DNA of 64,000 nt from a virus. This document shows, piece after piece, positions 45,675-49,510 of the stretch (positions are counted from its first letter, which is position 1; each line of letters starts with the position of its first letter). Location of the stretch: IMG/VR virus record IMGVR_UViG_3300025133_000055, positions 23,146 through 87,145 of that record; one strand, given 5' to 3'. The notes beneath the pieces are model-generated. The model worked only from the letters and a program-made list of their open reading frames with translations. It had not been told where the DNA came from and ran no database searches. The translations under genes and the position numbers were made by a program.

Positions 45675-46232
45675 GTGAAACTCCTACTTGAAAATTGGCG
45701 ACATTTCTTAAACGAAAGTGTTAACCCTGAAGAGGAATTATACTTGGGGGAAATTCAAGTAGAGGATAAGGTCATACCGGTTTTTCTTGACCCCGAAAAC
45801 GGAATTGGCCAAGTGCCGTGGAATCAGAATATTAATTATGTGGGTTTTGTTGTCTATATGACGCCAAGTGAATTTTTAAGATTAAATCCATCACGCAGTT
45901 CAGGAGAAGAATCTTTTCAATCCTTGAAGGATTATATGCTGTCTCAAGAAGAACTAAAAATTGGCCCTCCATTTTTGCAGCCGCGATGGGATGAAGAATC
46001 AAATCGCTGGATAATCAAACAACATGAAGGTCGAGGTAGAATGTTGGTTTTAAATGAATATATGCCTGATGAAGAAATTCCCGTGCATGTTTTTCCCCGA
46101 GGAGGACTTAGATCGCGTCATATAACAGATGAAATGCTTTTTGCTGATATGTTGTCTGATCCTCGCGGAGACTCTGATAATGTCTTCTCGCCAACAAAAG
46201 TAATTTTAAATGGAGAAACCAGAACACAATGA
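45675..46232 (+). CDS. MKLLLENW cassette 1: ParB/Srx-like domain
   Basis: M.PSEFL, PPFL and HEGRGR; GTG start 13 nt after the start of ACTAATTAT. Confidence 0.55.
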   Translation: MKLLLENWRHFLNESVNPEEELYLGEIQVEDKVIPVFLDPENGIGQVPWNQNINYVGFVVYMTPSEFLRLNPSRSSGEESFQSLKDYMLSQEELKIGPPFLQPRWDEESNRWIIKQHEGRGRMLVLNEYMPDEEIPVHVFPRGGLRSRHITDEMLFADMLSDPRGDSDNVFSPTKVILNGETRTQ

Positions 46233-46627
46233 AGCTCCTACTTGAAAATTGGCGGAAGTATATAATAGATGAGGTAAAAATTTCAACTGAAGACGATAAG
46301 AGGATCTTTCAGATAGACGGCGGAAGGATAACTGTCATAGAAAACAGTAAATGGGCCGGTGGCGCTCATTCGATATACGATTTTTTTGTTGATGAAAATA
46401 AAAGAGGCGAAGGTTTAGGAAAGAAATTAATCCAGATAGTGTTGGATAAATATCCGAGTAAAGAAATCTCCGCGCAAGTAAGCAGTTTAGCTTCCTTGAA
46501 GGCTTTTATGGATTCGGGTTTTAAACCCTCCGAAAAGCCCGATGCTTCTTTTGAAGAAGCAAAAGAAATTTTTGATTTCAACTCTAGTAGCCTAAATTTG
46601 AGGATTAACTATGAAACTCCTACTTGA
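46229..46627 (+). CDS. MKLLLENW cassette 2: GNAT acetyltransferase
   Basis: Acetyl-CoA motif A FFVDENKRGEGLGKKLI; S..AF...GF. Confidence 0.75.
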   Translation: MKLLLENWRKYIIDEVKISTEDDKRIFQIDGGRITVIENSKWAGGAHSIYDFFVDENKRGEGLGKKLIQIVLDKYPSKEISAQVSSLASLKAFMDSGFKPSEKPDASFEEAKEIFDFNSSSLNLRINYETPT

Positions 46628-47828
46628 AAATTGGCGGAAGTATTTGAATGAAGTTACCTTTTCAGATGCAAAAGAAACCCTTAATTCTAAGCGCACTTTA
46701 AAAATAATCAAAAATTATATTTATAATAGAAAACAAGAAAATCCTGACTTCCTTGAAGTAGAGTTTGAGACTCAACATCGCAACTTTAAAAATTATCTTC
46801 TTGATATTGTTCCAGATGATTTAACAGACAATCAAAAAGGCACTTCTGTTCTGTGGCTACTTAAAATGGCCAGAGAAGATAGCGACCTCGCTGCTCATCT
46901 TATTAATGGTCGTGCTATAGTTGGTCCCCGAAGCAGTCTGGAAACATTCTTCCACCATCAGCAATTTATGCCCAATCAAGATTTGATGCAAATCAAATCC
47001 CTAGACGATCTTGTCGTCATGACTCACAATGCAAAAGAAGAAATTCAAAAAGCACAAGAGAGAAAGAATTATCTTGATGCAGAACAGGGCACGGAAATTT
47101 TTAGCGGTAAAATGGAGCGCAATGAAGAAACCGGAGAATTAGAGAGGGCCCCCGGTAAGAATGGATGGTTTGTCGCGGCCCTTCACAACAAGGGCAGCGC
47201 ATGCGAATTAGGAAAAGGAACAGATTGGTGTACTGCCGCCCCCGGTTTGGATTATTTTGAAGATTATTATAAACCTGATGATCCGCTATTTTATTTCGAA
47301 AACAAGAAGAATAATAAGTTTCAGTTCCACTATGGCTCGGCTCAGTTTATGGATGCGAATGACAACCGAGTTGATAAAGAAACTTTTCAAATGTTACACG
47401 ATAAACTTATTGAAACCGAGGCGTGGAATAAGTATGAGAAGCTCAGAATATTTGTTTTGAACAAGATGGTGCAAATGCGCCTCGTTGATGGGTCGCCAGG
47501 GATGGAGGCGCTGATAGACGAGATGAGGGAAATTCTGAATTCTTTAGAAGATCCTTATGGCATGGCAAACTCGTTAGCAGAAATGGCAACAATGGATCAT
47601 TTCAATATCCCAACATATATTTTAAGGTGGTTAGCCAGCGAAGAGTTTTATAAATATCTTGGAGTTGCTAGAAGAATTGTGAAATATCACGAGGTTGTTC
47701 CTTCAAGCATCTTAAAGGATATAGCGGAAAATTATCCGAACGAGAGAACAAGAGTAATGGCACGAGAGGCTTTAGATAAGAGAAGAAGTGACTCGGACTA
47801 CGGAAATAGGATGTCAAAACTTAAATGA
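46611..47828 (+). CDS. MKLLLENW cassette 3: protein with G.GT.WCT motif (PcfJ-like region) and helical C-terminus
   Basis: SACELGKGTDWCTAA...Y...PLFY...KFQFH...FMDAND. Confidence 0.55.
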   Translation: MKLLLENWRKYLNEVTFSDAKETLNSKRTLKIIKNYIYNRKQENPDFLEVEFETQHRNFKNYLLDIVPDDLTDNQKGTSVLWLLKMAREDSDLAAHLINGRAIVGPRSSLETFFHHQQFMPNQDLMQIKSLDDLVVMTHNAKEEIQKAQERKNYLDAEQGTEIFSGKMERNEETGELERAPGKNGWFVAALHNKGSACELGKGTDWCTAAPGLDYFEDYYKPDDPLFYFENKKNNKFQFHYGSAQFMDANDNRVDKETFQMLHDKLIETEAWNKYEKLRIFVLNKMVQMRLVDGSPGMEALIDEMREILNSLEDPYGMANSLAEMATMDHFNIPTYILRWLASEEFYKYLGVARRIVKYHEVVPSSILKDIAENYPNERTRVMAREALDKRRSDSDYGNRMSKLK

Positions 47829-48538
47829 AACTCCTACTTGAAAATTGGCGGAAATTCTTAAAAGAAGAACAAGAGGGCGAAGGTATGCTTTTATATCACG
47901 CGACCTGTTTCCCACCAGAGTCTTTCACCGGGGGTATTGACGCCACTAGGGCAAAAGGGTTTGGTCAAGGAGCGGGTTTTTACTTTTTTACTAAAAAAGA
48001 GAATGCTATTAGCCACGGAAAGAGTCTTTTGGCGGATAAAGTCTATTCAAAGGGCGAGTCGTGCCCCGATGATGCAACCACTGCTTATATCATCGTTAGT
48101 GACGAACCGGTGACCCCAGAAACTTTTGATATCGATTATGAGGTATATGCATCAGGGTTTTCGCAGTTTATGATAGATAATATAGATTTTTTCTATAACA
48201 ATATGAAAGAGTTCGGTATGGCTCCTCCCCGAATATCATCAAGAAAAACACCTGAACAATATTTGAAAGAATTTCCACATCAATTCAAAGTACCCGACGA
48301 TGAGTCTGGAACAATTAGAATAGGGTATTTTGCACAGGGCAGCGATACAGATGTTTATAAAGCGGCTAGCCTATCAAAGATTGCCACTAGGCTAGCTGAA
48401 CTTAAGCCCGATATGTTCAAAAATTTTGAAGAACAGTTCTTGTCAAAAGCCAGTGCCATCAAATACAATGGCAAAGAAAAAATTATTCCCTTAAGAATTG
48501 AAGATCTTGAGGGGAAGATTGTATGGAGTCGAGGATGA
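47825..48538 (+). CDS. MKLLLENW cassette 4: ADP-ribosyltransferase-fold-like protein
   Basis: LYHAT...F..GID...GFGQGAGFYF....A..H (H-Y type ART core). Confidence 0.55.
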   Translation: MKLLLENWRKFLKEEQEGEGMLLYHATCFPPESFTGGIDATRAKGFGQGAGFYFFTKKENAISHGKSLLADKVYSKGESCPDDATTAYIIVSDEPVTPETFDIDYEVYASGFSQFMIDNIDFFYNNMKEFGMAPPRISSRKTPEQYLKEFPHQFKVPDDESGTIRIGYFAQGSDTDVYKAASLSKIATRLAELKPDMFKNFEEQFLSKASAIKYNGKEKIIPLRIEDLEGKIVWSRG

Positions 48539-48933
48539 AACTCCTACTTGAAAATTGGCGAAGGTATATAGCAGAAGCCCACGGATTAGATACTACTTGG
48601 GATAATCTTCATATTGATGATGTTTTTAAAATTACAGGGAAAAGTTGTGATGAGGGAGACGGTAAAGAATGCAAGACGTACACCACAAAAAAACTCAAAG
48701 ACTTGTTGAAAAACAAACCAATTGTTGATACATTAGATCCAAAAAGAGTAAAGTATGCTAATCCTGAGTACCCGCTAATTGTTGTAGTTAACAATGGTGA
48801 ATATCAGTATATTATGGATGGAAACCATCGTTTCGCAAATGCTGTAAAAACTGGTAAAGATGTAAAAGTTAAAGAATTAGATATTGAAGAATATAATGAA
48901 ATGTTTGGGGCGCAAAATGAAGCTCCTACTTGA
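48535..48933 (+). CDS. MKLLLENW cassette 5: ParB/Srx-like domain
   Basis: YPLIVV...YIMDGNHRF..A. Confidence 0.7.
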   Translation: MKLLLENWRRYIAEAHGLDTTWDNLHIDDVFKITGKSCDEGDGKECKTYTTKKLKDLLKNKPIVDTLDPKRVKYANPEYPLIVVVNNGEYQYIMDGNHRFANAVKTGKDVKVKELDIEEYNEMFGAQNEAPT

Positions 48934-49510
48934 AAATTGGCGAGAGTATATAAATGAAGACGAAGGCGCTTCTTCCCCGCTCGATCTAAAGATCGGGCCG
49001 AATCAGAGAATACTTGCACTTAGCGAACCGTGGAAGGGATTTCCATCCAATATTCAACAGAAGAAGGGACCTAAGCCAGATGGAGTTTGGTATGGCTGCG
49101 GCGACTCATGGCTTAAATGGATGGCACGAGAGATGCCGCATTGGCTTGACCGTGTAAATTATGTTTATGAGCTTGAGATATACGATGCGTTTATGAAAGT
49201 CATCACCAATGCGGAGCAGTTCAAAAGCTTTGAACATGAGTTCTGGGCCAGGGCGCCGCATCAAGAAAGGGCAGAGCACACCGGTCCAATTGATGGAATA
49301 TACCATATGATTGATTGGCCACTTCTTGCAGGCATCGACTGGGATGGGATAGAAATTTGTCCATATCTTTGGGAATTTAGAATGAGCAACAGCGCGTGGT
49401 ATTATCCGTGGGATGTCGCTTCGGGATGTATTTGGGATTCGGAAGCACTTATTGGTGAACCAAAATTATTATGGCAAAGAGAATCAGATGAAAGCGGAGA
49501 AGAAGAATGA
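48917..49510 (+). CDS. MKLLLENW cassette 6: Trp-rich hypothetical enzyme
   Basis: KPDGVWY...W..W, IDW...DGIEI and WDVASGCIW. Confidence 0.55.
   Translation: MKLLLENWREYINEDEGASSPLDLKIGPNQRILALSEPWKGFPSNIQQKKGPKPDGVWYGCGDSWLKWMAREMPHWLDRVNYVYELEIYDAFMKVITNAEQFKSFEHEFWARAPHQERAEHTGPIDGIYHMIDWPLLAGIDWDGIEICPYLWEFRMSNSAWYYPWDVASGCIWDSEALIGEPKLLWQRESDESGEEE

What the first reader, a model, noticed from the sequence alone, without database searches (positions are those of the whole stretch)
46229..49510. The 25-nt repeat also terminates the preceding gene in either alternative frame
Seen: the repeat has TGA at nt 2-4 (+1 frame) and nt 15-17 (+2 frame). All six internal junctions use one of these stops. 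ATGA overlaps end the genes at 46232, 47828, 48538 and 49510, and read-through into ...ETPT*/EAPT* ends the genes at 46627 and 48933. None of the first six cassettes has its own stop or intergenic space. The whole run follows one late-type motif at 45661. Inference: a self-contained start/stop/coupling linker lets a stop-less fragment be terminated and translationally coupled in two of three frames. This could also explain why the CTT-GAA codons are fixed.
Basis: partly seen in the sequence, partly recalled or inferred. Interest (0 to 1): 0.75.

Follow-up and report, generated by a model that had tools for sequence, protein, structure and literature searches.

The report
Leader repeat supplies upstream genes' stops
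Seven unrelated genes of an uncultured marine T4-like phage are packed head to tail, and each one ends at a stop codon inside the shared 25-base start of the next; this is real and typical of the phage group, but it looks like a by-product of a shared capsid-loading tag and tight packing, not a purpose-built linker.

Summary
Seven copies of a 25-nt repeat start seven unrelated + strand genes (45675-50505). All six internal junctions stop inside the next repeat: four by ATGA and two at TGA, nt 15-17.

The pattern holds in relatives. In 120 IMG/VR loci, 64 of 76 non-redundant in-array junctions use these two stops. Homologous cargo genes switch between the two frames. Relatives insert or swap cassettes exactly at the repeat.

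The repeat encodes MKLLLENWRKY(L/I)xE. This is most likely a T4-type capsid-targeting propeptide ending in the gp21 cleavage motif (L/I)-x-E. Five complete relatives all encode gp21 and gp23.

The "self-contained, selected linker" reading is only partly supported:
- Shine-Dalgarno (SD) sequences lie outside the repeat, in the upstream gene's last codons (about half of junctions).
- The T that makes the second TGA is as conserved in leaders that terminate nothing (85-90%). A neighbouring synonymous site outside any stop is equally conserved.
- 16-32% of 25-nt coding stretches in this window carry stops in both off-frames by chance.
- ATGA outnumbers the second stop about 4:1.
- Translational coupling was not tested.

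The scan reported the same kind of leader junction on other DNA (e1-5998867, e1-5378476). I rate it a seamless variant of the T-even internal-protein cassette system, of modest interest.

The parts
44746..45666 (+). Endolysin gene (PG_binding_1 plus Amidase_2) directly upstream of the array. Its TAA stop lies 8 nt before cassette 1.
   Evidence: Pfam and PHROG matches; ORF list.
45663..45672 (+). The next copy is at 50527-50536 and none lies inside the array.
   Evidence: 13 + strand copies against 0.96 matches expected. Function not tested.
45675..46232 (+). Cassette 1 (185 aa, GTG start, leader MKLLLENWRHFLNE). Its stop is the TGA of ATGA at 46229-46232.
46229..46627 (+). Cassette 2 (132 aa, GNAT acetyltransferase). 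Its stop is TGA at 46625-46627, which is nt 15-17 of the repeat at 46611. The tail YETPT is encoded by the repeat.
   Evidence: Pfam Acetyltransf_10, E 3.4e-6.
46611..47828 (+). Cassette 3 (405 aa), with weak similarity to a PA5oct 'structural protein'. Its stop is the ATGA at 47825-47828.
47825..48538 (+). Cassette 4 (237 aa, ADP-ribosyltransferase-like fold with conserved H25, Y53, E106). Its stop is the ATGA at 48535-48538.
   Evidence: Alignment A1; model pLDDT 87; ART-fold hits with Z 5-7.5.
48535..48933 (+). Cassette 5 (132 aa). Its stop is TGA at 48931-48933, which is nt 15-17 of the repeat at 48917. The tail NEAPT is encoded by the repeat.
   Evidence: Homologues in L099, L095 and L120 end by ATGA instead.
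48917..49510 (+). Cassette 6 (197 aa). Its stop is the ATGA at 49507-49510.
   Evidence: The L064 homologue ends at TGA nt 15-17 instead.
49507..50505 (+). Cassette 7 (332 aa, HELTH motif at 50038-50052). It has its own TAA stop and is followed by intergenic DNA.
14149..14493 (+). Eighth, solo gene with the same leader peptide (MKLLIESWRKYLNE) but diverged DNA. It has its own motif at 14122, its own SD and a 33-nt gap after the upstream TAA stop.

Best explanation
What the repeat is. The 25-nt repeat is the first eight codons of a 14-residue N-terminal leader, MKLL(L/F)ENWR-x-(Y/F)(L/I)-x-E. It is carried by seven unrelated cargo genes packed with no intergenic DNA behind the endolysin gene.

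What the leader most likely does (inferred). It is probably a capsid-targeting propeptide of the T4 internal-protein type, cut after E14 by a gp21-type prohead protease.

Why the stops are there. The leader always begins ATG-AAR and has (C/T)TT-GAA at codons 5-6, so its DNA holds TGA in both non-coding frames. Once spacers are squeezed out, each cargo gene runs into the next leader and stops there. Usually this happens at ATGA, the classic 4-nt overlap that permits termination-reinitiation (coupling is inferred). Otherwise it happens at nt 15-17, when small indels in the 3' tail put the gene in the other frame.

How the array evolves. Related phages insert, delete and swap cassettes with breakpoints at the repeat. 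A cargo gene therefore needs no stop of its own as long as a leader, or a truncated leader, follows it. The two stops are exploited, but I see no sign that they were selected for. The nucleotide conservation covers the whole leader start, and the ribosome-binding sites lie outside it.
For: Anatomy.

Leader peptide. Among 231 copies from 120 viral loci, conservation stops abruptly after E14. In the cassette-4 family, L12 and E14 stay at least 90% conserved even where the rest of the leader differs. gp21 cleaves after L/I-X-E, and the T4 capsid targeting sequence (CTS) is a 10-residue propeptide on otherwise unrelated internal proteins (PMC9026906; PMC3012670; PMC12373910).

Phage background. 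All 5 complete 186-203 kb genomes with the leader encode Peptidase_S77 (gp21) and Gp23. Their GroEL is 59-63% identical to the window's, and in four of them the endolysin is 47-62% identical.

Junction statistics. In-array junctions number 76: 50 ATGA, 14 at nt 15-17, 5 TAATG/TGATG, 7 with their own stop. The ATGA background is 8.8%.

Frame switching. Ten of 27 homologous upstream-gene families have mixed junction types.

Cassette exchange at the repeat. L064 carries an extra cassette exactly between the homologues of cassettes 6 and 7, and nucleotide identity jumps from 82% to 96% at 49507. The 217 leader genes fall into 100 unrelated body families, and the same cargo has different neighbours in different genomes.

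By-product rather than design: and the second leader family of this window.
Against: - No virion, cleavage or expression data exist for any member.
- The window's own contig is about 48% complete and shows no gp21.
- ATGA use is 5-8 times the background and far above the window's second leader family (2 of 11). Some selection for seamless junctions in this family is therefore not excluded.
- Truncated cargo-less leaders persist between non-leader genes, where they end the upstream gene and supply a GAGG before the next start. That would fit a junction function.
- The loci are not phylogenetically independent. I removed redundancy only by flank identity.
Confidence: 0.6

Rival explanations
1. 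Purpose-built junction module. The repeat has been selected as a frame-tolerant start/stop/coupling linker so that any captured stop-less fragment works in two of three frames. On this view, that selection keeps CTT-GAA fixed.
For: - 84% of in-array junctions use the repeat's stops.
- Homologous genes switch frames and are still terminated.
- Cargo-less mini-ORF copies (MKLLLENWRG[IL]*) sit between non-leader genes, ending the first and providing GAGG 4-9 nt before the second.
Against: - T at nt 15 is as conserved where the stop is unused: 90% in ATGA junctions and 85% in solo leaders.
- It is no more conserved than nt 12, which lies in no stop.
- SD sequences lie outside the repeat.
- Both-frame stops occur by chance in 16-32% of comparable 25-mers.
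- The ratio of 98 ATGA to 22 at nt 15-17 is not what random-frame capture predicts.
- Selection for future evolvability is hard to sustain.
Confidence: 0.15
2. Nothing specific to the repeat. These are ordinary phage gene overlaps that happen to fall on a leader starting ATG-A.
For: ATGA and TAATG overlaps are common in the same loci: 136 and 66 of 1542 ORFs. Any gene whose second codon starts with A offers ATGA.
Against: - The window's second leader family also starts ATGA, yet only 2 of 11 upstream genes use it.
- In-array use here is 66% ATGA plus 18% at nt 15-17.
- Homology breakpoints between relatives coincide with the repeat.
Confidence: 0.15
3. The nucleotide conservation reflects an RNA- or DNA-level signal in the first 25 nt, such as a translational operator or enhancer or a recombination site. 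On this view the peptide is secondary.
For: - Synonymous sites in codons 2-9 are far more uniform than body codon usage predicts. CTC at codon 3 is 50% against 8%, CGA at codon 9 is 48% against 15%.
- Within-locus copies are more alike than between-locus copies (3.63 against 4.42 differences per 27 nt; 0 of 2000 permutations).
- T4 ipII and ipIII share identical DNA from about -17 to +33.
Against: - Arrays such as L112, L114 and L018 keep the peptide with heterogeneous DNA.
- Residues 9-14 are conserved as amino acids with varied codons.
- Diverged family members keep only (L/I)xE.
Confidence: 0.1

Closest known systems
T-even phage internal proteins (IPI, IPII, IPIII and more than 30 variants) with their capsid targeting sequence, in hypervariable loci (PMC9026906, PMC3012670, PMC12373910, PMC2839356 citing Repoila et al. 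1994)
   Same: - A short N-terminal leader is shared by otherwise unrelated proteins.
- The leader ends in the gp21 motif (L/I)-x-E.
- Relatives encode gp21 and gp23.
- Leader copies are identical at DNA level within a genome (T4 ipII/ipIII).
- The locus lies just downstream of the endolysin gene (T4 e-ipIII-ipII).
- Cargo content varies between relatives.
- One cargo has an ADP-ribosyltransferase-like fold. By comparison, T4 Alt is a head protein processed by gp21 (PMC9026906); that Alt is an ADP-ribosyltransferase is general knowledge.
   Different: - The leader sequence is unrelated and has 14 rather than 10 residues.
- Arrays reach 7-8 genes.
- There are no intergenic regions: T4 ip genes have 73-115 nt gaps and their own stops, and phage Kha5h has a 9-nt gap.
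- Here the leader DNA itself provides the upstream stop and marks the exchange breakpoints.
- Packaging and cleavage are not shown here.
Translationally coupled overlapping genes (ATGA / TAATG stop-start overlaps) of bacterial and phage operons
   Same: Four of six junctions are the canonical 4-nt ATGA overlap. About half of all family junctions carry an SD inside the upstream gene's end.
   Different: The overlap is supplied by a repeated coding leader. A second stop 13 nt further on catches the other frame, giving 17-nt overlaps and a repeat-encoded 5-residue tail. Coupling itself was not tested.
PeSL mobile regulatory cassettes of T4-type phages (Arbiol et al. 2010, PMC2839356)
   Same: Short conserved repeats flank non-essential genes and mark the boundaries of insertion, deletion and replacement between related phages.
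   Different: PeSLs are intergenic promoter plus stem-loop terminator units. Here the repeat is coding, with no promoter or hairpin, and the junctions are seamless.

Membership tests
T4-type capsid-targeting-sequence / internal-protein system | One short N-terminal leader shared by otherwise unrelated proteins | tested here: met
   Seven cassettes plus one solo gene in the window. The 217 leader genes in related loci fall into 100 unrelated body families.
T4-type capsid-targeting-sequence / internal-protein system | Leader ends in the prohead-protease cleavage motif (L/I)-x-E | tested here: met
   Position 12 is L/I/V in 206 of 231 copies and position 14 is E in 184 of 231, after which conservation stops. 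L12 and E14 are at least 90% conserved in alignment A1. Motif definition from PMC9026906.
T4-type capsid-targeting-sequence / internal-protein system | Genome encodes a gp21-type prohead protease and a gp23-type capsid protein | tested here: inconclusive
   Not found in the window's contig, which is about 48% complete. Present in all 5 complete leader-bearing relatives, which are related to the window by GroEL and, in four of them, endolysin.
T4-type capsid-targeting-sequence / internal-protein system | Proteins are packaged in the head, cleaved and injected | not testable with these tools
   This needs virion proteomics or N-terminal mapping. The only hint is that cassette 3 weakly resembles a PA5oct 'structural protein'.
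Translationally coupled overlapping genes | Stop of the upstream gene overlaps or abuts the downstream start | tested here: met
   4 ATGA and 2 seventeen-nt overlaps in the window. 69 of 76 in-array junctions in relatives overlap.
Translationally coupled overlapping genes | Downstream translation depends on upstream termination | not testable with these tools
   SD cores are present in only about half of junctions. This leaves room for reinitiation but does not show it.
PeSL-type mobile regulatory cassettes | Intergenic sigma-70-like promoter plus stem-loop terminator as the repeated unit | tested here: not met
   The repeat is entirely coding and the array has no intergenic DNA. No terminator-like hairpin on the + strand lies within 45675-50505.

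The most novel reading that the evidence does not exclude
The leader repeat is a selected, integrase-free cassette junction. One 25-nt module provides the start codon, stops for both foreign frames and the homology for exchange. As a truncated mini-ORF it also provides a Shine-Dalgarno donor and translational coupler. Any captured ORF then becomes a correctly terminated, coupled, capsid-addressed cargo gene.
Probability: 0.15. Interest if true: 0.6.

Novelty: new variant of a known kind. Interest (0 to 1): 0.35.

Why it matters
The finding shows how a large, uncultured group of ocean T4-like phages keeps a fast-changing set of probable injected enzymes in seamless arrays. These include GNAT-like, ADP-ribosyltransferase-like and metalloprotease-like cargo. 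A cargo gene needs neither its own stop nor a spacer, because the next gene's tag supplies the stop and marks where cassettes are exchanged.

This refines the T-even internal-protein model, in which intergenic promoter-type elements were linked to shuffling. It also gives a simple sequence rule for finding candidate capsid cargo in metagenomes. The specific claim examined here, that stops in two frames are a designed feature, adds little beyond known overlap coupling.

Tried and rejected
Searches that returned nothing useful:
- blastn of the array against 50,697 phage records: no match.
- tblastn of the leader against the same set: no match, though the query was short and filtered.
- Literature searches for the leader string found only unrelated words. 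One search failed on a short term.
- Repoila et al. 1994 (PMC395341) is not held, so it is cited only through PMC2839356 and PMC12373910.
- PF03420 was not found in the window's own contig, which is incomplete.
- The 872-aa neighbour was not found in the five complete relatives.
- RNA evidence: no RNA holder was listed.
- Foldseek against PDB gave no match at E <= 0.001 for cassette 4. The ART-fold call rests on a consistent VIA list at Z 5-7.5 and on conserved H/Y/E residues. That range is moderate.
- The relatives look-up of earlier findings returned nothing.

Readings considered and rejected:
- Sec or lipoprotein signal peptide: the leader is charged and amphipathic, with no hydrophobic core.
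- RiPP leader: the cargoes are 130-400 aa enzymes.
- Integron-like system: I did not search for an attC-like structure or an integrase, and the exchange breakpoints are in coding repeats.
- T4 late promoter TATAAATA: no + strand copy precedes the array.
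Full report
**1. The observation**

The window is the last 64 kb of an 87-kb IMG/VR virus record estimated to be 48% complete. The 25-mer ATGAAACTCCTACTTGAAAATTGGC occurs seven times on the + strand with at most one mismatch, at 45675 (GTG), 46229, 46611, 47825, 48535, 48917 and 49507. No copy is expected in shuffles.

Each copy opens an ORF of 132-405 codons. The ORFs end at 46232, 47828, 48538 and 49510 within ATGA. 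They end at 46627 and 48933 at the TGA formed by CTT-GAA (nt 15-17 of the repeat), which adds the repeat-encoded tails YETPT and NEAPT. No cassette from 1 to 6 has an earlier stop or any spacer. Cassette 7 ends at its own TAA (50503-50505).

The motif at 45663, CTAATTATAG, is one of 13 + strand copies of CTAWTTATAR, against 0.96 matches expected. None lies inside the array and the next is at 50527.

**2. What the repeat encodes**

With a relaxed peptide pattern these loci hold 245 copies, of which 231 lie far enough from a locus end to analyse. The consensus is M-K-L-L-(L/F)-E-N-W-R-x-(Y/F)-(L/I)-x-E. Conservation collapses directly after E14.

In the cassette-4 family (69 homologues; alignment A1), distant members have quite different leaders, such as MKITRRQLRKLIMES and MK-NFRTWLNINEN. 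They still keep L12 and E14 in at least 90% of sequences. L/I-X-E followed by cleavage is the specificity of the T4 prohead protease gp21. The T4 capsid targeting sequence is a 10-residue N-terminal propeptide shared by otherwise unrelated internal proteins (PMC9026906; PMC3012670; PMC12373910).

Five complete 186-203 kb genomes that carry the leader all encode Peptidase_S77 (gp21) and Gp23. Their GroEL is 59-63% identical to the window's, and in four of them the endolysin is 47-62% identical. The best GroEL matches listed in the phage record set are 42-44% identical. The window's own contig shows no gp21, but half of the genome is missing.

Other points fit an injected-cargo reading:
- Cassette 2 is a GNAT.
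- Cassette 3 weakly matches a PA5oct "structural protein".
- Cassette 4 folds with pLDDT 87, and its leader forms a separate low-confidence helix.
- Its structural neighbours are almost all ADP-ribosyltransferase folds, at a moderate Z of 5-7.5.
- The array lies directly behind the endolysin gene, as T4 ipIII and ipII lie behind gene e.

I therefore read the leader as a probable capsid-targeting propeptide. This is inference; nothing shows packaging or cleavage.

**3. Do homologous arrays behave the same way?**

After removing junctions with near-identical flanks, 202 remain. Their types are:

| Junction type | Count |
|---|---|
| ATGA | 98 |
| TGA at nt 15-17 | 22 |
| TAATG/TGATG | 16 |
| Own stop upstream | 62 |
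| Longer overlap (T at nt 15 absent) | 2 |
| In-frame fusion | 1 |
| No upstream gene within 600 nt | 1 |

Where the upstream gene itself carries the leader (76 junctions), the counts are 50 ATGA, 14 at nt 15-17, 5 TAATG/TGATG and 7 with their own stop. Other long ORFs on the same strand of the same loci are followed by ATGA in 136 of 1542 cases, or 8.8%.

Homologous upstream genes end differently in different genomes. Ten of 27 families are mixed. Examples:
- The window's cassette 6 ends ...SGEEE* by ATGA, while its L064 homologue ends ...EGEENETPT* at nt 15-17.
- L107 ends ...GKTYK* while L070 ends ...GKTYETPT*.
- The window's cassette 5 uses nt 15-17, while the L099, L095 and L120 homologues use ATGA.

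Small indels in the 3' tails move genes between frames, and the repeat stops them in both.

**4. Cassette exchange at the repeat**

- The 217 leader-bearing genes fall into 100 unrelated body families. The window's cargo types have different neighbours in other genomes.
- Nucleotide homology blocks to other loci begin at repeat starts, for example 46611 and 48535.
- L064 has the homologues of cassettes 6 and 7 with one extra 155-aa cassette exactly between two leader copies. Identity to the window jumps from 82% to 96% at 49507.
- Truncated, cargo-less leaders (MKLLLENWRG[IL]*, 10-11 codons) occur in several lineages. The upstream gene ends in their ATGA. The leader breaks off after TGG-CGA-GG, and that GAGG lies 4-9 nt before the start of a non-leader gene.

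**5. Is it a selected, self-contained linker?**

Several tests say no, or not demonstrably.

(a) Ribosome-binding sites lie outside the repeat. A GGAG/GAGG/AGGA core is found at -17..-5, inside the upstream gene's last codons, in 102 of 202 junctions against 14 of 202 at a control position. The rate is the same in ATGA junctions.

(b) The T that creates the second TGA is conserved whether or not that stop is used. It is present in 88 of 98 ATGA junctions, 14 of 16 TAATG/TGATG junctions and 17 of 20 leaders with real intergenic gaps.

(c) The excess of T at codon 5 is 151 of 180 against 73 expected from body codon usage. The A at the third base of codon 4 shows the same excess (161 of 180 against 71 expected), yet it is part of no stop. 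CTC at codon 3 and CGA at codon 9 are also far above their usage. The whole leader start is conserved as DNA, as in T4 ipII and ipIII. Copies within a locus are more alike than copies between loci.

(d) Stops in both off-frames within 25 nt occur in 23 of 73 ORF starts and in 16% of random in-frame 25-mers of this window.

(e) ATGA outnumbers nt 15-17 by about 4:1, and in-frame fusions are almost absent. That is not what random-frame capture would give. It fits the usual preference for the 4-nt overlap.

On the other side, the window's second leader family (MKITKxQLRRIIKEE) also starts ATGA, but only 2 of 11 upstream genes use it. Seamless junctions are therefore a real trait of the MKLLLENW family and not of tagged genes in general.

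**6. Comparison with known systems**

The closest system is the T-even internal-protein/CTS system with its hypervariable loci. There, shuffling was linked to intergenic promoter-type elements (PMC2839356). T4 ip genes keep 73-115 nt gaps and their own stops. Phage Kha5h has a 9-nt gap. Here the exchange breakpoints and the upstream stop both lie in the leader's own codons.

The junctions themselves are ordinary overlap architecture. This scan has already described leader-coded junctions of this kind on other DNA (e1-5998867, e1-5378476). I used those notes only as leads and tested the breakpoints here.

**7. Verdict**

I found no evidence that the stops are why the codons are fixed, and the unit is not self-contained. 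Coupling, late transcription, packaging and cleavage remain untested. No RNA holder was listed.

Noticed in passing
L107:4780-4818 (same in L053); L113, L042, L045, L067, L103, L083: Cargo-less truncated leader mini-ORFs (MKLLLENWRG[IL]*, 10-11 codons) lie between two non-leader genes. The upstream gene ends in their ATGA. Their CGAGG supplies an SD 4-9 nt before the next start (TAAATG or TAGATG).
   Followed up: partly
window 6400, 14122, 17267, 23162, 32449, 34449, 36133, 40087, 42314, 45663, 50527, 54996, 55965: The strand-biased motif CTAWTTATAR occurs 13 times on the + strand against 0.96 matches expected. It lies 1-31 nt before gene starts, and in other loci directly abuts leader ATGs (CTATTTATAGtATG). 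It may be a transcription signal, but the spacing is too short for a T4-style -10 element serving the adjacent start.
   Followed up: partly
window 14149-14493: An eighth gene carries the same leader peptide (MKLLIESWRKYLNE) but diverged DNA. It stands alone, far from the array, with its own motif, SD and gap.
   Followed up: partly
L064:600-1653 (- strand) versus window 48917-50505: This relative has an extra 155-aa cassette exactly between the homologues of cassettes 6 and 7. Identity to the window jumps from 82% to 96% at the repeat, a mosaic boundary.
   Followed up: yes
window 47825-48538: Cassette 4 has an ADP-ribosyltransferase-like fold (Z 5-7.5) with invariant H25, Y53 and E106. One of the hits is a chain of the cyanophage A4 pre-ejectosome (9k3a_B).
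   Followed up: partly
window 32674-41519: Genes of the second leader family (MKITKxQLRRIIKEE) mostly keep their own stops and 4-107 nt gaps. Only 2 of 11 use ATGA, and there is no +2-frame stop in the first 25 nt.
   Followed up: partly
window 50038-50052: Cassette 7 contains an HExxH motif (HELTH), which suggests a zinc metalloprotease-like cargo.
   Followed up: no
window 44746-50505 versus L138 (T4 65416-66997): The array lies directly downstream of the endolysin gene, as T4 ipIII and ipII lie directly downstream of gene e.
   Followed up: partly
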